Below, piece by piece: positions 25,301 through 31,300 of a stretch of 43,850 nucleotides of DNA; position 1 is the first letter of the stretch, and the number at the start of each line of letters is the position of its first letter. Made by a program: the position numbers. Source of the stretch: Nitrospiraceae bacterium (lineage in GTDB: Bacteria; Nitrospirota; Nitrospiria; Nitrospirales; UBA2166); NCBI GenBank assembly GCA_002726235.1, contig PBSN01000006.1, positions 1 through 43,850 on the forward strand, given 5' to 3'.

Positions 25301-28300
25301 CGACTTCAGTATATGCCTCGGGCTTGGTCTGAATCAGAGCCAGTTGACGTTTCAGAACATCGGCATGTTCGGACTCCTCCACGGCAAGTTTTGAAAACAC
25401 GCGAGAAGCTTCCGGATCATCACCAAACTTCTGATGAAGCTTAAAGAAGGCCCCCCCGGTGAGCGTCTCAATCTCTATGGCTTTGGTGACGAGCTCTTTA
25501 AGATCCATGTACGTCGCTTGCTTCCTTGTAGGTAGATAGGCGAGTGTCACCCTGACCGTAGCACCGTCAGAACATTCGCACAAGCGCACAACCATGTATT
25601 ACTACTTTCAGCGCTACCATGATTTCAGCCATTGCACAGCCCATTCTCTCCCAGTAAACTGCTAGAAACTCAAGATTTACCCACGTTGCATCCGCATGAC
25701 AGCACGCAACCTATCAGGATGAACAAAACTGTAACAAACTACTCATTTATGCTTTCCTGTCAGCACCTCGAATGTTCCTTGGCATCAATTGTGCTGTCTC
25801 TAAACAGGCATCGAGGATGCACATGGTTTACAGTATTTTCATAATGCGTCACGTCCGCTTGCAGTAGGATAGTTTGCTTGACATATCTGGAGCAATAATC
25901 TATATATTCAGATCAACTGTCATTTTTTTGGCGTTGTCGCGTTGCAATGACATTATATCCCTTCCACTTGATGCGAAGTGTTCAGCATAAAGCTGAAAAA
26001 CAAGACAGCTAGCGGGTTACCTTGGCACAATACTTCTGGTGAATGTATCGTGCATAACGGTCACCTCATTACAATACAATTAGAGCGGAGGAAACCTAAG
26101 ATGGATAGATCAACACCTTTCGTGCTCAGTCACAAATGGCTGGCACTCACTGTAGTTGGCGTAGCCTTTACACTCACTATGGGTTGCGGTGACAGTGACA
26201 GTGACACAACTACCCCGGAGACAGGCACAGCAACCCAAGCGACAGCCGAGCAACCTGCGGAGTTCGTAGCTGCACTAGGTGATTTTACCGACTACCGTTA
26301 CTGGCGGACGCTTGATTATAGCACGGGCTATACGAATCCATACCTTGTCGACAAACACATGGCAGCTGATAACGCCTACTCTCGGCGCGTATGGATTAAC
26401 GAGCCCGGAGCGAGATCGCGAGAAGCCGGAGAAGCCTCCTATCCGCTAGGAACAGTCATTGTCAAGGAAACGTTTACTTGGGACGAGAGCGGAAACAAGC
26501 AATTCGCTGCCATGGGTGGAGTGTTGGGCATGGTAAAGCGCGGTGGAAATTTCAACAAGGATGGGGAGCATTGGGAATGGTTCATGCTAGCCTCAGACCC
26601 TGCAACTAGTGCCCTTGAAGAAATCAAGGACCGTGGCGGAGCCTCTCTCATGGATGGCATGTGTAACAGCTGTCACGCAAGCGCGAACGCCCAGACTGAG
26701 GGCTCAGACATGGTATTTGCGCACCCCTCAGACATTGAGGTCACGGACGGATTTTTCGCCGATTACGCCACATGGTCGGTCATACAAAATACTCCGGAAA
26801 ACCACGTCCTGTTGAGCATGGCGCACAAAAGCGCAGACCCGGACACCATACGCACAGTCTACAAGAAGCAGCTCCAGGCCAACCCGAAACACACCCCTGA
26901 CACATACAACGTAATCGCGGACGTGTACCCGATTGGGACGGCCATTCTGAAGACGGTCGCAGACGCGACTGGTGCCATTATCGAGATCACGGCCATGGTC
27001 AAGCGCGCCCCGGCCTTTAACGAAGATCACGGTGGCTGGGAATGGTTTATGCTTGATCCAGCTACAGCCGGTGTTATGCCAGAAATGCGAGGAGCAGGCT
27101 TGGGCAACAATATGTGCAACACATGCCATATTGCGGCCACGGGACCCTCTGGCCTGAATGGCGTTGACTACGTGTTTAAACACCCGAATGACCCATTCGT
27201 CAATATGGGAGAACCCGTAGTACCAGAAGTTGCACCGGAACCAGCAGCCGCAGAAGAAACGGTAGCGGTAGCAGAACCAGTAGCCGCAGAAGAACCGGCA
27301 GCGGCAACGAGCAATTTAGGCCCAGCCGCATTTAAGGCTGACTTTGCAACATCTCCGGAATTCTACACCAACATGATTGCACTGAATTCTAGTAACCCTC
27401 CCTCTCCCCACAATGCGGTCAAAATCTGGTACTCGATAAACATGCAGGAAATGGCTGCAGCTGGCAGTACGGGACCGTGGCCTGAGGGAACCACGTCCAT
27501 TAAACAGGTGGATATGGCGCCAGCAGATGGAGTCATCGACGAAATTGTTGTGATGATTAAGATGGCTGCTGGATACGATACAGCAAACGGCGACTGGTAC
27601 TACGAGGCGCGCGATGCAAATGGCACCCTCTTGACCGACGAAGCCAAAGCGCCTGGAAAGAATGCCATGTGCATCGGCTGTCACGCTGCAAATTCAAAAG
27701 ATTACTTGGCAGGCCTAGATCTACGCTAATTTAATAAGGGAATAGTTCCCTATAAAGGGGAACTATTCCCTGTAAAATAGGTGTCAATGCGCCGCACGTT
27801 GCTTGTTCACATTGTACTTCTGGGGTTGTTCCTATTTCTATGGGCCGAGGTCGCCTCGGCCGTTCCCCGCTTTTCCATGCGAACCGGCCTGTCGTGCAAC
27901 GCATGTCACGTGAATCCAAGTGGGGGGGGAATGCGCACCGAGCATGGAAGCTTGTACGGGCGTATGAACCTCCCCCTCAACCCCACCATGCGAGCCAAGG
28001 GCGAGAAATTCAGCCCGAAAATTACCAAACACCTCACCGTGGGGTCAGATCTCCGCGTAATGGGGTTCTCTGATAATCGGCACAATCTCAGTTTCTTCCC
28101 AATGCAGGCGGACCTCTATATTTCCGCCCAACTGACCGACAAAGTCCTGCTCTACCACGATCAAAGCCTGCTTTCCAGCGAGATTGAAACCTTTGGTCTC
28201 GCTCAAATCCTACCGTTCTCAGGCTACGTCAAGGCAGGAAAGTTTGTTCCAGCATTCGGATGGAAGCATGATAATCATACGGCCTTTACGCGCGGAGGGA

Positions 28301-31300
28301 ATTCGAGTTCGCGAGAAGTCGGGCAAGTAACCCGCGGCACAGGGTTCAGTCGGGATGATAAAGATACTGGCGTCGAGGTTGGATTCTATCCAGGACAAGC
28401 CTCCATTCAATTGGCCGTCCTGAATGGACAAAGAGGAGGCATCCCGTTTGATAACAATCAGGGTAAAGCCTATGTCGCGCGAGCAGATTACTTTATTCTC
28501 AACTTCGAGCATCTGAAGACAAACGTCGGAGGATCGTTCTATCACAACGATGCGGAGACCTTTGAACGACAGATCTATGCCGGCCATGCCGGAATCAACC
28601 TGTGGAAATTAACGTATCTCGGCGAATATGACTGGAATGAGCTATCGCGAGACACCACGCCACGCGTAAAAAGTACGGCGCAATATCACGAGCTTAGCTT
28701 TCTTCCTGTCCAAGGGATTGATCTGAAGGGGATATATGAACACATAGATCCAGATCGTAATATCGATCGTGATGAGCTCTCCAGAATTGGAGCAGGGATA
28801 GAATTTTTCCCCTTACCTCATAATGAAATTCGTCTCGAATACCGTCATACCACGGGGCATAAGGAAATCAACCCTGATGCCGGGTTAGATGAAGTCTTTC
28901 TCATGTACCATTTTTATTTTTAATTCCACTGCGTTCCGCAAGAAAATACTCCCGCACGCCCACTTGTTCAGACAGTTTTCCTGACCATCCCCCAATGTGC
29001 TATACCTTGCACCCCCAGCCATACGTCTGCGCAGTCACTCCTAGAGGACGCTAGCATTCCAGACCTGCAGGATACAAAAAAAATGGGGGGTCCCATCCCG
29101 AACTTTCCACAGAGAAGCCCTAACCGAGCAAAAATCCAAGGACGTGCAAAACCGCACGGGAAGAGGTCGAACATGAGGGAAATACAGCTGAAAGGCTTGT
29201 TTCAATACCCAATGCTAGCGCGCTTGATCAAGTGCCTCCCGACACCTATTCAATGCGGCATTCAATTCGTCCTTCACAGCGGGAGGAAGAGGTTTGGCAG
29301 GTTGCTTTTTGACGAGTTCGATAGTTGTGATGAATGTGTCCACAAAGGCCTGGCAAGGAGGACAATTTCCGTTATGGGTTTGAATGGCTTCACACAATTC
29401 TTCTGAGAGTTCCCCATCTACGTACTCGGAGAGGAACGCAAAGATCTCTTTGCAAGTCATCTTGGACGCAATACTCTTCGCCTTAGAATCAGGCATGCGA
29501 ACGAACCTCCCCCTGACAGTAGAGGTGAAGATGTTTTCGCGCAAAAAGGCGTGCGCGATGCAGTCGCGACTTCACGGCAGAAACAGAAGCCCCGATGATC
29601 TTCCCCGTTTCCTCTGCACTAAAACCCTCGACATCTCGCAATAACAGCACCATTCTGAGGTCTGACGGAAGAAGATGTATGGTCTCATCTAACACCCCTT
29701 GCAATTCCTTATTCAGCAATTCATCGATGGGCGTCCGGTGCCAATCAACAACACTCAATGTTTTACGTTCATCCTCCCCAAGTGCCAGTTCATCAAGCGA
29801 GAATATTTCACGGGGGGAAAACTTACTCTTTCGTCGCATCCTCATACACGCATGTTTAGCAATCTGAAAGAGCCAGACAGAGAACTTCGCCTCAGCACGG
29901 AACGCATCCATACCCTTGAATGCCGCGACAAACGTCTCTTGCAACATATCCTGGGCGTCATCAGTATTCCCACACATGCGGAGTCCCATGGAATAGAGAC
30001 GCCCAACGTATCGAGAGACCAGTTCCTCAAAAACATCGTGCTGCCCCTGTTGAAATCGCGTCACCAGCTCGTTGTCTTGCAACTTGTCCAGCATCGCACC
30101 CTTGCCTTGCATATCCTGAGGTTGAACGAAAACGCGCTATTCTAGACATTAGGGTTCTTCCATGACAAGCATGGATATCACTACTCAGATCACTCCACTT
30201 TTACCCCATACCGGCGTGGCTACGGCACTCAGATCCTCTCATATTTTCAAATACGCTCTGGACTGCGTTCCTCGCGCCTTGGTCTGGCCAATATTACAAC
30301 CACCTGCATAGTTACATGTGAGGCATAAACTGACACGCGACACCTTACTTCACATCAATTGCCATGACGAGAAAATCAACGCCGAGAGTTCGACCATGAT
30401 GAGGCTCGGTATAGGTTCCGTCATAGTAATACCACTGGTGGGGAGTCATCTCCCCGAGTTCGGAGGGAAGTGGCGGTAATTTCTTGGCATTAAGCCCACT
30501 CGCAACAAATGTCTCGGGGTTGAGAAAATACAGCACATCTTCGGTTGTATTCTCTGGTGTGTGCGAAAAATGAACCATATTACGCTGTGATACCCCGTCT
30601 AACATACAAAACTGTTTAGTTTTGTGTGAGAGATCAATAGCCATCAGCCCAGACCCTGGCAACAGTAAATTCGCAATGGCGTTGACCTCTGCACGAGCCG
30701 ATCCGGTCACGACATCAATAGGCTCAGGCTGCTCCTCAGCGGCTTTCGATCCTTCTTCGCCTCCCTTAAGAAAGTCGAAAACACCAGCGGCAAGAGCCGT
30801 CTCCAGTGGCAACACCAACACCATGAATATACTCATCATGGCGAACATAAGTTTTGCTTCCTTCATCACGAAAACCTCCTTCCTGACATCTCAGGTTGAC
30901 CATTCTGTACAGCTCGCAATACAGACTGAGCAACATTCCACCACGTTCTCAGGATTTGAGTCAATGCAATTAAGTGTGCATGATCACAACTTAATGGATG
31001 AAACGAGTTGATTGAGCCACTTGATTGGGAAAAACATCGACACAGTTTCCTGGTACCGCCGGTAAGGAACCCCAAACATCACAACCAGTTTTCGTTCTTC
31101 GAAATACGTCCCTATAAACAGATACACGGTCAGGACAGCATTAGTGACAAGCGTCACGACAGACACGTCTCGGGCCCACAGAAAAAGCAGCAACGCAAGG
31201 TACCACGGATGCCGTACTACGCGATGAATGCCGGAGATAGTCAAGACTGGTGAGGACGTATCACAAGATCCAGCACGATAAGCTGCAATTTGCCGAATAC

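What a model noticed while it worked through the whole genome (the two positions that open the first line are those of the whole stretch)
26101..28923. Cyc2-like haem-porin fusions with a variant motif, one paired with a triple cytochrome-P460-fold lipoprotein
g00421 (C6:27787-28923, 378 aa) and its 59% paralogue g00822 (C8, true start GTG 255631, not 255730) are outer-membrane proteins with a signal peptide, one CxxCH haem site right after it and a predicted 16-stranded beta-barrel: the architecture of the iron oxidase Cyc2. Their family has its own invariant motif, ALPRF[AS]xR[TY]-x3-CxxCHVNPSGGGMR, which fails the published Cyc2 filter PxFAR[QK][TY]...CxxCH...PxL. g00421 is always preceded by g00420 (C6:26101-27729), a lipoprotein made of three tandem cytochrome P460/c'-beta-like domains, each with its own CxxCH (188, 339, 524), a likely periplasmic electron acceptor.
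Evidence so far: No Pfam/NCBIfam/Swiss-Prot row for g00421, g00822; weak OMP_b-brl hit. AlphaFold model from 16 homologues: 16 strands between residues 83 and 377, pLDDT 70-89 in the barrel, N-terminal haem stretch disordered. Alignment: invariant P27,R32,C37,C40,H41,V42,P44,G46-48,R50. Cyc2 definition from PMC8406198, passages read. Paralogy 59%; upstream ORF of g00822 holds the missing signal peptide. g00420: Pfam Cytochrome_P460 on domain 1 only; three-fold repeat and haem sites. Pair g00420-g00421 adjacent in 3 of 3 UBA2166 genomes that have it; g00420 not found in 296 other Nitrospirales.
(Added by a program. Inside this text positions count along the whole contig: contig position 1 is position 1 of the stretch shown here. 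"Call 12" and the like, gene names such as g00115 and contig names such as C1 are that model's own, and its searches are not shown. The text may have been shortened before it was handed on; [...] marks where a part breaks off. The agent that wrote the report below was given it as the finding of a first reader that could run no searches.)

Follow-up and report, generated by a model that had tools for sequence, protein, structure and literature searches.

The report
Variant Cyc2-like haem-porin with P460 lipoprotein
Two adjacent genes of a marine bacterium encode an outer-membrane pore carrying one haem, a divergent relative of the iron-oxidising protein Cyc2, and a lipid-anchored protein with three haem domains, which together probably move electrons across the cell envelope.

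Summary
Both genes are real and as described. g00421 (27787-28923, 378 aa) has a signal peptide, one CxxCH at the mature N-terminus and a confidently modelled 16-strand barrel whose best solved match is OprP, the template reported for Cyc2. The missing test, comparison with true Cyc2, was run. 69 full-length motif-defined Cyc2 genes show the same register (PxFAR[KQ][YT]-x3-CxxCH) as this family (PR[FY][SA]xR[TY]-x3-CxxCH). No other CxxCH site in the genome resembles the Cyc2 motif. The barrel alone does not separate Cyc2 from haem-less porins, so kinship rests on the haem motif and the architecture. The family fails two published Cyc2 criteria (FAR[QK], PxL) and forms its own clade. It is far larger than stated: 597 representatives at E<=1e-30. 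Its neighbours are enriched in small cytochromes c and cupredoxins. g00420 (26101-27729) is a lipoprotein with three P460 domains. Each keeps the lysine that cross-links the haem in true P460 and lacks the catalytic carboxylate. The pair is adjacent in 3 of 3 genomes that hold g00420. RNA-library contigs cover both genes. Most likely this is an outer-membrane electron-entry module, probably for Fe(II). Substrate, direction and partnership remain inferred.

The parts
25596..26100 (+). Upstream intergenic region and leader of the two-gene unit. It has lower G+C, weak sigma-70-like hexamers at 26022-26051, and GGAGG 8-9 nt before the ATG.
   Evidence: An RNA-library contig begins at 25943. The promoter is not established: the number of hexamer matches does not exceed shuffles.
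26101..27729 (+). g00420: 542-aa lipoprotein made of three tandem cytochrome P460-family domains.
   Evidence: Pfam PF16694 scores 85.8 bits over 3 stretches. PDB profile hits are cytochromes P460. Foldseek top hits are P460 and c'-beta.
26101..26187 (+). Signal peptide ending in a lipobox-like ...LTMG-C29. An acidic, Thr-rich tether follows (residues 30-55).
   Evidence: Read. C29 is nearly invariant in 54 homologues. Orthologues have ...FTAS-C and ...FAVG-C. No signal-peptide predictor was available.
26266..26745 (+). P460 domain 1 (residues 56-215). K122 sits at the cross-link position, L142 at the catalytic-carboxylate position, and CxxCH is at 188-192.
   Evidence: Model pLDDT is above 90.
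26746..27225 (+). P460 domain 2 (residues 216-375). K284, T297, and CxxCH at 339-343.
   Evidence: Model pLDDT is above 85.
27226..27285 (+). Pro/Ala/Glu-rich flexible linker between domains 2 and 3 (about residues 376-395; the low-confidence stretch continues to about residue 407).
   Evidence: Sequence. pLDDT is below 50 for residues 384-407.
27286..27726 (+). P460 domain 3 (residues 396-542), the most divergent. K468, V483, and CxxCH at 524-528.
   Evidence: Pfam match above cut-off at 27358-27705. Model pLDDT is 50-79.
27738..27770 (+). Perfect 13-bp inverted repeat (hairpin) in the 57-nt gap between the two genes, with no T-run. It is present only in this genome.
   Evidence: The orthologous gaps are 5 nt (G001) and 38 nt (G004) and lack the repeat.
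27787..28923 (+). g00421: 378-aa fused monohaem cytochrome-porin of the variant Cyc2-like family.
27787..27861 (+). Signal peptide (residues 1-25: MRR, hydrophobic core, ASA, then VPRF).
   Evidence: Read. The mature N-terminus of Cyt572 starts at the same motif (YPGFARKYNF; review PMC13741234, passage read).
27859..27936 (+). Haem motif A-V-P-R-F-S-M-R-T-x3-C37-N-A-C-H41-V-N-P-S-G-G-G-M-R50.
   Evidence: Invariant P27, C37, C40, H41, P44, G46-48 and R50 in 40 sequences. 118 of 120 listed homologues carry it.
28033..28917 (+). 16-strand beta-barrel (residues 83-377). A long internal loop (154-192) carries a helix at 162-169 with invariant H164 and R169.
   Evidence: Foldseek: OprP 2o4v at E 6e-13, and OprO 4rjw at rank 16.

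Best explanation
g00420 and g00421 form a two-gene outer-membrane redox module. g00421 is a fused monohaem cytochrome-porin. After signal-peptide cleavage, its first ~30 residues carry one covalently bound haem c, which sits in or at the periplasmic mouth of a 16-strand OprP-like barrel, as proposed for Cyc2. A small dissolved reductant enters the pore and reduces the haem. Fe(II) is the most likely reductant by analogy, and Mn(II) is possible. The electron is then passed to a periplasmic partner encoded next door. In most lineages that partner is a small cytochrome c or a cupredoxin. In this lineage it is g00420, a tri-haem P460-family lipoprotein tethered to the outer membrane by a flexible linker. 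From there electrons would reach the bd-like terminal oxidases.

Shown here: the gene structures, the haem sites, the fold, the motif-level kinship to Cyc2, the conserved adjacency, and presence in RNA libraries. Inferred: haem incorporation, the substrate, the direction of electron flow, and physical contact between the two proteins.
For: Architecture:
- Signal peptide, single CxxCH at the mature N-terminus and 378 aa.
- 16 strands, pLDDT 81.5, pTM 0.80.
- The best solved match is OprP 2o4v (E 6e-13), and OprO 4rjw is also listed. These are the templates Keffer et al. name for Cyc2 (PMC8406198, section read).

Kinship to Cyc2:
- A degenerate DNA scan for the published motif returned 120 loci, including Acidithiobacillus, Sideroxydans and Gallionella MAGs.
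- Their spacing is FAR[KQ][YT]-x3-CxxCH, the same register as this family.
- An HMM built from the 69 full-length ones hits 117 of 118 family members at E<=1e-3 in that small database.
- hhalign gives probability 99.5%, E 5e-23, over 342 columns. Reversed-column controls give <=0.5%.
- A PSSM of the 12 residues before CxxCH in canonical Cyc2 ranks the two G000 proteins first and second of 67 CxxCH sites (+2.4 and -6.9; next best -24.1). The family median is -3.5, against -46.9 for 87 other CxxCH sites in the metagenome loci.

Partner logic:
- In 53 metagenome loci with a same-strand ORF within two genes, 23 have a CxxCH protein there. That is 27 of 117 neighbour ORFs, against 8 of 205 other ORFs.
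- Pfam calls these neighbours PSCyt1, CytoC_RC, cupredoxin and YceI.
- The g00420-g00421 pair is adjacent in 3 of 3 genomes that hold g00420. The gap is only 5 nt in G001.
- The paralogue sits in an operon with a CusF/cytochrome c/binding-protein fusion and an SMBP metal-binding protein.

Expression and genome context:
- Contigs from 4 metatranscriptome runs cover parts of both genes, and one 664-nt contig bridges the gap.
- G000 has two bd-like oxidase genes and no COX1 match at 90.65% completeness.
Against: - The family fails two published Cyc2 criteria, FAR[QK] and PxL.
- Barrel similarity is generic. The canonical Cyc2 barrel HMM scores a haem-less porin of G000 at 50.9 bits but g00421 at only 16.3 bits. 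The family barrel HMM scores canonical Cyc2 barrels no better than haem-less porins: the two top Cyc2 scores are 24.1 and 22.0, the rest are <=11.1, and the porins score 11.7 and 11.6.
- A barrel tree that includes haem-less porins is unresolved. Exclusive common ancestry of the fused form is therefore not shown.
- All three g00420 domains keep the lysine that cross-links the haem in true P460. By my recollection such haems are five-coordinate and of very low potential, which makes them poor acceptors for a Cyc2-type haem at about +200 mV.
- Two of the five family genomes lack g00420 and the g00421-type copy (88% and 73% complete). The pair is therefore not the core copy.
- No activity data exist, and no haem was modelled.
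Confidence: 0.5

Rival explanations
1. The pair handles nitrogen-oxide chemistry rather than metal oxidation. g00420 would be a catalytic or scavenging P460 enzyme that binds hydroxylamine or NO at cross-linked haems. The haem-porin would admit the small substrate, or would take or give the electrons.
For: The profile of g00420 homologues matches solved cytochromes P460 (2je2 at 7e-9, 6amg at 1.4e-8). It places K122, K284 and K468 on the cross-link Lys106 of the AL212 enzyme; the title of PDB entry 6w6n names K106L. The lysines are kept in all 3 orthologues. Larger relatives add a C-terminal class I cytochrome c domain, as an enzyme with its own electron outlet would.
Against: The position of the carboxylate, A131 in AL212 (the A131E and A131Q variants are in the PDB), is Leu, Thr and Val in the three domains. 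By my recollection of the P460 literature, a Glu there is required for hydroxylamine turnover. Elsewhere the porin family is paired with plain electron carriers, not P460 proteins. No paper in the library holds both 'cytochrome P460' and 'Cyc2'.
Confidence: 0.15
2. The haem-porin family works outward. It would export respiratory electrons to extracellular acceptors such as Fe(III) or Mn(IV) minerals or soluble shuttles. g00420 would be the periplasmic donor.
For: Named family members come from Ignavibacteria, Bacteroidota, Deltaproteobacteria/Myxococcota and Phycisphaerae MAGs rather than known iron oxidisers. Low-potential P460-type haems would suit a donor role. The neighbouring small cytochromes fit either direction.
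Against: A single haem inside a narrow 16-strand pore cannot touch a mineral surface (argument of Keffer et al., section read). All characterised Cyc2 relatives are oxidases of dissolved Fe(II). According to PMC12342949 (passages read), the host lineage fixes CO2 by the rTCA cycle, which fits a lithotroph in need of an electron donor.
Confidence: 0.15
3. The adjacency has no functional meaning. g00421 is a Cyc2-like conduit that uses other carriers, and g00420 is an independent periplasmic haem protein that happens to share a transcript.
For: Two of the five family genomes have only the paralogue and no g00420. The paralogue has quite different neighbours. The interface prediction gave no answer and is not counted either way.
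Against: Adjacency and order are kept in 3 of 3 genomes at 67-88% protein identity, with gaps of 5 to 57 nt. The flanking genes in the window are unrelated housekeeping genes. Family members elsewhere have redox carriers in the same position.
Confidence: 0.12
4. The resemblance to Cyc2 is convergent or mosaic. A short haem-binding leader would have been joined independently to a different OprP-class porin, so the family is not a Cyc2 relative by descent.
For: The barrel signal is no stronger to Cyc2 barrels than to haem-less porins, and the three-group barrel tree is unresolved.
Against: Several features are shared: nine-residue motif similarity, an identical x3 register, and placement directly at the signal-peptide cleavage site. 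This is very unlikely to arise twice. In either case the working architecture is the same.
Confidence: 0.08

Closest known systems
Cyc2 fused cytochrome-porins (Cyc2PV-1 of Mariprofundus ferrooxydans, Cyc2 of Acidithiobacillus ferrooxidans, Cyt572 of Leptospirillum)
   Same: Both have a signal peptide, a single CxxCH at the mature N-terminus and a 16-strand OprO/P-like barrel of similar size. Both share A-[ILV]-P-x-[FY]-[AS]-x-[RKQ]-[TY]-x3-CxxCH in the same register. Both have small periplasmic redox carriers encoded nearby.
   Different: Positions +4 and +5 after the Pro differ: Cyc2 has R-[KQ], this family has x-R. PxL is replaced by NP[ST]GGGMR, and the FGxxFxxNGY stretch of Cyc2 is absent. 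The family forms a separate clade (SH-like support 100). None of the 144 further best representatives has the canonical motif. No member has been studied.
Cytochrome P460 (Nitrosomonas europaea 2je2, Nitrosomonas sp. AL212 6amg, Methylococcus capsulatus 6hiu) and cytochrome c'-beta (6hih, 7ead)
   Same: The fold and Pfam family match. CxxCH lies near the C-terminal end of each domain. The cross-link lysine in the G-T-x-x-x-K motif is kept in all three domains.
   Different: Three domains lie in tandem on one lipoprotein, instead of a single-domain soluble protein. There is no carboxylate at the AL212 A131 position. An extra His is invariant in domains 1 and 2 (H86, H242). The gene is encoded with an outer-membrane haem-porin.
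Multi-domain 'cytochrome P460 family proteins' (for example in Agaribacterium haliotis, Marinagarivorans algicola and Poribacteria MAGs)
   Same: They are built of the same tandem P460 repeats, 30-50% identical.
   Different: Most have 2 domains, or 4-5 domains plus a C-terminal class I cytochrome c. g00420 has 3 domains and no cytochrome c domain. Their gene neighbourhoods were not examined here.
Phosphate-selective porins OprP and OprO
   Same: OprP is the best structural match of the barrel (TM 0.55-0.60). The nearest ESM Atlas cluster that has a Pfam family carries Porin_O_P on 20% of its members.
   Different: These porins have no haem leader. g00421 has no Pfam Porin_O_P match at E<=1, and sequence identity is about 12%.
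Porin-cytochrome complexes MtrCAB, MtoAB and PioAB
   Same: They are outer-membrane electron conduits in which a porin works with haem proteins, one of which (MtrC) is a lipoprotein (plus general knowledge).
   Different: Those use 26-strand barrels and decahaem cytochromes threaded through the pore. Here there is a 16-strand barrel with one fused haem and a P460-fold tri-haem lipoprotein.

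Membership tests
Cyc2 (as defined by Keffer et al. 2021, PMC8406198) | N-terminal signal peptide | tested here: met
   MRR, a hydrophobic core and ASA before VPRF, read. No predictor was run.
Cyc2 (as defined by Keffer et al. 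2021, PMC8406198) | Single CxxCH haem site near the N-terminus | tested here: met
   C37-H41. 118 of 120 listed homologues carry one; the other 2 are N-truncated gene calls.
Cyc2 (as defined by Keffer et al. 2021, PMC8406198) | PxFAR[Q/K][T/Y] motif upstream of CxxCH (used as a hard filter) | tested here: not met
   g00421 has P-R-F-S-M-R-T. The P, F, [TY] and x3 spacing are kept, but A is replaced by S, R by M, and [QK] by R. None of the 127 further representatives with an N-terminal CxxCH has FAR[QK][TY].
Cyc2 (as defined by Keffer et al. 2021, PMC8406198) | PxL motif downstream of CxxCH | tested here: not met
   CxxCH is followed by V-N-P-S-G-G-G-M-R. Canonical sequences have x3-PxL.
Cyc2 (as defined by Keffer et al. 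2021, PMC8406198) | 16-strand beta-barrel porin resembling OprO/OprP | tested here: met
   16 strands at residues 83-377. OprP 2o4v is the top hit and OprO 4rjw ranks 16.
Cyc2 (as defined by Keffer et al. 2021, PMC8406198) | Length of at least 365 aa | tested here: met
   378 aa.
Cyc2 (as defined by Keffer et al. 2021, PMC8406198) | Match to a FeGenie Cyc2 cluster HMM, or blastp E<=1e-5 to a cluster representative | tested here: inconclusive
My own HMM of 69 motif-defined Cyc2 gives g00421 39-41 bits, but it gives a haem-less porin 51.6 bits. In blastp against those 69, 59 of 118 family members reach E<=1e-5, in a tiny database.
Cyc2 (as defined by Keffer et al. 2021, PMC8406198) | Fe(II) oxidase activity and a redox potential near +200 mV | not testable with these tools
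   Needs expression and biochemistry.
Cytochrome P460 family (Pfam PF16694) | Profile match above the curated cut-off | tested here: met
   85.8 bits against a cut-off of 27, over 3 stretches. Two stretches pass the cut-off in the six-frame search.
Cytochrome P460 family (Pfam PF16694) | P460 / c'-beta fold with CxxCH near the domain's C-terminus | tested here: met
   The Foldseek matches ranked 1-25 in the list are P460 or c'-beta chains, with TM normalised to the target of 0.46-0.59. CxxCH is at residues 188, 339 and 524.
Cytochrome P460 proper (as opposed to c'-beta) | Lysine that cross-links to the haem | tested here: met
   The residue is present at the aligned position: K122, K284 and K468 align with K106 of AL212 P460. 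The cross-link itself cannot be tested here.
Cytochrome P460 proper (hydroxylamine-oxidising) | Second-sphere carboxylate at the position of AL212 A131 (the E variant is the active one; requirement recalled from the literature) | tested here: not met
   L142, T297 and V483.
Porin_O_P (Pfam PF07396) | Profile match | tested here: not met
   No match at E<=1. Only the fold is similar.
Porin-multihaem cytochrome complexes (MtrAB, MtoAB, PioAB) | 26-strand barrel with an inserted decahaem cytochrome | tested here: not met
   16 strands and one fused haem.

The most novel reading that the evidence does not exclude
A large, unnamed sister clade of Cyc2 is a second widespread outer-membrane metal oxidase that current iron-gene surveys miss, because it fails the motif filter. 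It has at least about 600 clusters at 50% identity and occurs in Ignavibacteriota, Bacteroidota, Myxococcota and Nitrospirota. In the only Nitrospirales family without nitrite oxidoreductase, this protein and a tri-haem P460-type lipoprotein would form the entry point of Fe(II) or Mn(II) lithotrophy. That would give the lineage its so far unknown energy source. It would also show P460-fold haems serving as an electron wire rather than as a nitrogen-oxide enzyme.
Probability: 0.22. Interest if true: 0.85.

Novelty: new variant of a known kind. Interest (0 to 1): 0.62.

Why it matters
Cyc2 is the main marker used to find iron-oxidising bacteria in genomes and metagenomes. The published definition removes any sequence that lacks PxFAR[QK][TY] (PMC8406198, passages read), so this family is invisible to those surveys. 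If it oxidises Fe(II) or another metal, the range of organisms credited with that ability grows. PMC12342949 (passages read) describes that family as marine, lacking nitrite oxidoreductase and of unknown energy metabolism. A transcribed outer-membrane electron-entry module is a concrete, testable candidate for that metabolism. The pairing with a triple P460 lipoprotein is not in print in the library searched: no paper holds both 'cytochrome P460' and 'Cyc2', and no paper holds the motif strings NPSGGGMR or CHVNPSGGG.

Tried and rejected
- Sequence search of the PDB with g00421 gave nothing meaningful. NCBIfam gave nothing.
- Supplementary figures S1 and S8 of PMC8406198 hold only legends as text, so the logos could not be read. 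The motif spacing was taken from real genes instead.
- Complex prediction on g00421 (residues 24-378) with g00420 (residues 50-542) returned no answer (score 0.00). It is not used either way.
- A barrel-only tree with 6 haem-less G000 porins, 34 family barrels and 69 canonical barrels did not resolve the relations of the three groups. It had long branches and no supported placement.
- The tree used 45 of the 118 family sequences and had no outgroup. It shows only that the family is one side of a branch.
- The stretches 25400-25935 and 29152-29400 had no cover in any of the 4 RNA-library runs laid. Missing cover in contigs proves nothing and is not used.
- The sigma-70 promoter and terminator scans found no more sites than shuffles.
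- The first Atlas call gave only unnamed porin-like clusters.
- Rejected idea: that M49 of GGGMR must be the sixth haem ligand. Several members have Leu or Val there.
- Rejected idea: that the intergenic hairpin is a conserved regulator. It is absent from the two orthologous loci.

Full report
**The observation.**
- g00420 is 26101-27729, 542 aa. GGAGG lies 8-9 nt before the ATG, and there are three CxxCH sites at residues 188, 339 and 524.
- g00421 is 27787-28923, 378 aa, with one CxxCH at residues 37-41.
- The flanking genes are unrelated housekeeping genes: a pyridine-nucleotide disulphide oxidoreductase, an S41 peptidase, a Y-family polymerase, and a convergent ECF sigma/anti-sigma pair. 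The unit is therefore these two genes.
- The 57-nt gap contains a perfect 13-bp hairpin. The hairpin is absent from the two orthologous loci, where the gaps are 5 and 38 nt.

**g00421, anatomy.** The N-terminus reads as a signal peptide (MRR, a hydrophobic core, ASA). It is followed directly by V-P-R-F-S-M-R-T-G-L-S-C-N-A-C-H-V-N-P-S-G-G-G-M-R.
- Pfam and NCBIfam give nothing above cut-off. The PDB gives no sequence match.
- A word-indexed search found 247 homologues. Of the 120 listed, 118 carry one N-terminal CxxCH in A-[LV]-P-R-[FY]-[SA]-x-R-[TY]-x3-CxxCH-V-N-P-[ST]-G-G-G-M-R. The other two are gene calls that start at an internal Met.
- In a 40-sequence alignment, P27, C37, C40, H41, P44, G46-48 and R50 are invariant. 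So are several barrel residues, among them M106, H164 and R169.
- AlphaFold2 on that alignment gives pLDDT 81.5 and pTM 0.80, with 16 strands between residues 83 and 377. The haem stretch is modelled at pLDDT 52-83.
- Foldseek against the PDB puts OprP (2o4v, E 6e-13) first and lists OprO (4rjw). Keffer et al. name the same two templates for Cyc2 (PMC8406198, section read).

- I back-translated the published consensus (PMC8406198, sections read) into a degenerate DNA pattern with variable gaps and scanned one genome per species. They include MAGs named Acidithiobacillus, Sideroxydans and Gallionella, and isolates of Ralstonia and Massilia.
- 118 of the loci hold an ORF with the motif, and 69 of these are complete and at least 365 aa.
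- Their spacing is A-[ILV]-P-[AS]-F-A-R-[KQ]-[YT]-x3-CxxCH-x3-PxL. The register between the motif and the haem site is thus the same x3 as in this family. The differences are confined to two positions of the motif and to what follows the histidine.
- An HMM of the 69 hits 117 of 118 family members at E<=1e-3 in that small database, some of them end to end.
- hhalign gives 99.5% probability (E 5e-23, 342 columns). Reversed-column controls give at most 0.5%.

**A caution on the barrel.** With the haem leader removed, hhalign still gives 97.8%, but this is not specific to Cyc2.
- The canonical Cyc2 barrel HMM scores a haem-less, coiled-coil-headed porin of the same genome at 50.9 bits and g00421 at only 16.3 bits.
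- The family's barrel HMM scores canonical Cyc2 barrels about as well as those porins. The two top Cyc2 scores are 24.1 and 22.0, the rest are <=11.1, and the porins score 11.7 and 11.6.
- A tree of the three groups is unresolved.

The barrel therefore places the protein in the OprO/P porin class. The link to Cyc2 rests on the haem leader.

**The haem leader is specific.** I built a position matrix from the 12 residues before CxxCH in the 69 canonical sequences.
- It ranks the two G000 proteins first and second among 67 CxxCH sites in the genome's ORFs (+2.4 and -6.9; the next best is -24.1).
- The family median is -3.5. For 87 other CxxCH sites in the metagenome loci the median is -46.9 and the maximum is -17.3.
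- The mature N-terminus of purified Cyt572 starts at the same motif (YPGFARKYNF; review PMC13741234, passage read).

I conclude that this is a Cyc2-type fused cytochrome-porin by architecture and by haem motif. It fails two of the published defining features (FAR[QK] and PxL). It also forms its own clade against the canonical set: 45 of the 118 family sequences against 69 canonical ones, SH-like support 100, no outgroup.

**Size and range of the family.**
- An exhaustive profile search of 1.84 billion representatives finds 597 at E<=1e-30, 2082 at <=1e-10 and 3629 at <=1e-3.
- Of the 144 new best representatives, 127 have an N-terminal CxxCH and none has the canonical Cyc2 motif. 17 are N-truncated calls, many starting at the Met of GGGMR.
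- Source names point to Ignavibacteria, Bacteroidota, Deltaproteobacteria/Myxococcota, Phycisphaerae and Nitrospirae MAGs, all labelled hypothetical.
- Within the host's order, full-length matches occur only in the 5 genomes of the host's family. 55 of the other 296 genomes sampled give weak hits, most of them to the leader only. The one I opened is a canonical Cyc2 (AIPAFARKY...). This fits the report that nitrifying Nitrospirales carry Cyc2 homologues (PMC9040806, passages read).

**What sits next to the family elsewhere.** A porin ORF with the motif was located in 65 of the 80 metagenome loci.
- 53 of these have a same-strand ORF within two genes, and in 23 of the 53 at least one such ORF carries CxxCH.
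- That is 27 of 117 neighbour ORFs, against 8 of 205 other ORFs in the same loci.
- Pfam on 87 of the 117 neighbours names monohaem PSCyt1 cytochromes, dihaem CytoC_RC-like cytochromes, cupredoxins (two loci) and YceI-like proteins (eight loci).

This is the pattern expected of an outer-membrane electron conduit that hands electrons to a carrier encoded next door.

**g00420.**
- It starts with a signal peptide ending in ...LTMG-C29. The Cys is nearly invariant in 54 homologues, and the orthologues have ...TAS-C and ...AVG-C. An acidic, Thr-rich tether follows.
- Three repeats are shown by internal BLAST. Pfam Cytochrome_P460 matches all three.
- The model has two confident domains (pLDDT above 90). 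A third, less confident domain sits on a Pro/Ala/Glu-rich linker. Its only meaningful solved matches are cytochromes P460 and c'-beta.
- A profile of the homologues hits P460 chains in the PDB. It aligns the motif G-T-x-x-x-K with the stretch of Nitrosomonas sp. AL212 P460 that ends in K106, the cross-linking lysine (PDB titles). This gives K122, K284 and K468, one per domain, kept in all three orthologues.
- The position of AL212 A131 is Leu, Thr and Val here. The E and Q variants of A131 are in the PDB. By my recollection of the P460 literature, a carboxylate there is needed for hydroxylamine turnover.
- The protein is therefore of the P460 type, not the c'-beta type, but is probably not a hydroxylamine oxidase.
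- Relatives elsewhere have 2 to 5 such domains, often with a C-terminal class I cytochrome c. Where sources name them, the name is 'cytochrome P460 family protein'.

**The pairing.**
- All 5 genomes of the host family have the paralogue type.
- 3 of the 5 have the g00421 type, each directly after a g00420 orthologue. The two without the pair are 88% and 73% complete.
- Full-length g00420 was found in 3 of 301 genomes sampled from the order. Two others gave weak single-domain hits.

**The paralogue.** Its start is the GTG at C8:255631. It lies in a different apparent operon:
- a 1362-aa protein with a sub-threshold multicopper-oxidase hit;
- a 915-aa fusion of CusF-like, cytochrome c and periplasmic-binding domains;
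- a beta-propeller protein;
- the haem-porin;
- an SMBP small metal-binding protein.

That context is also periplasmic, redox-related and metal-related.

**Expression and genome context.**
- Contigs of four metatranscriptome libraries (three studies, marine and hydrothermal-vent labels) match parts of both genes, mostly at 99% or more. One 664-nt contig runs from 27318 to 27981, across the gap.
- These are contigs from RNA libraries. They show presence, not level or strand, and DNA carry-over is not excluded.
- G000 (90.65% complete) has no COX1 match and two bd-like subunit I genes.
PMC12342949 describes that family as marine, without nitrite oxidoreductase, with the rTCA cycle, and of unknown energy metabolism (passages read).

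**Mechanism.** The best-supported reading is an outer-membrane electron-entry module. A dissolved reductant, Fe(II) by analogy, enters the pore and reduces the fused haem. The electron then passes to the lipoprotein and on to the respiratory chain.
- The weak link is g00420. A cross-linked P460 haem is normally a catalytic, low-potential centre (recalled), which fits an acceptor role badly.
- The rivals are nitrogen-oxide chemistry, outward electron export, chance adjacency and a mosaic origin. They are listed with their odds.

**In print.**
- No paper in the library holds both 'cytochrome P460' and 'Cyc2'.
- No paper holds NPSGGGMR or CHVNPSGGG.
- Passages containing my search terms in PMC10654088, PMC12442345, PMC13647500 and PMC13741234 mention only canonical Cyc2.

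**Verdict.** This is a real, well-defined new variant of the Cyc2 kind. It is common in nature and missed by the published filter. In this lineage it is coupled to an unusual triple P460 lipoprotein. Its function is unproven.

Noticed in passing
G000 contig C8:247048-257332 (locus L134:1049-11333): The paralogue g00822 lies in an apparent five-gene operon. It comprises a 1362-aa protein with a sub-threshold Cu-oxidase hit, a 915-aa CusF + cytochrome c + Peripla_BP_6 fusion, a 503-aa beta-propeller, the haem-porin, and an SMBP small metal-binding protein. The same order (binding protein, propeller, porin, SMBP) appears in metagenome loci L137 and L138.
   Followed up: partly
window 27738-27770: A perfect 13-bp inverted repeat with a 7-nt loop lies between g00420 and g00421, with no T-run after it. 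It is absent from the orthologous loci of G001 (5-nt gap) and G004 (38-nt gap).
   Followed up: yes
protein ids P0004, P0010 and 17 of 144 representatives: Gene callers often start members of this family at an internal Met, frequently the Met of GGGMR. This removes the signal peptide and the haem site, so the proteins look like plain porins or hypotheticals.
   Followed up: partly
window 29215-30112 (-); loci L162, L177, L189: An ECF sigma factor with a zf-HC2 anti-sigma partner lies convergent just downstream of g00421. ECF-type sigma factors or sigma-54 activators also sit directly upstream of family members in three metagenome loci.
   Followed up: no
G000 contig C22:13783-18866, C8:559320-560642, C7:2787-4163: Several haem-less porins with N-terminal coiled-coil heads occur here, three of them clustered on C22. 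They score higher against a canonical Cyc2 barrel HMM than the Cyc2-like proteins themselves.
   Followed up: partly
metagenome loci L139, L151, L164, L167, L183, L191, L194, L198: A YceI-like periplasmic protein is encoded immediately downstream of the haem-porin in eight loci, sometimes followed by a small cytochrome c or a cupredoxin. Its role in the module is unexplained.
   Followed up: no
G000 contigs C7:100846-101583 and C8:275810-276547: There are two cytochrome bd-like subunit I genes that match only the first 240 positions of the Pfam model. No haem-copper oxidase match was found in the 90.65%-complete genome. One bd-like gene lies about 19 kb from the paralogue operon.
   Followed up: no
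g00420 residues 86 and 242 (window 26356-26358 and 26824-26826): A histidine is invariant in domains 1 and 2 of all 54 tandem-P460 homologues, but it is absent from domain 3 and from the aligned stretch of N. europaea P460. It may be a distal ligand or base peculiar to the tandem family.
   Followed up: no
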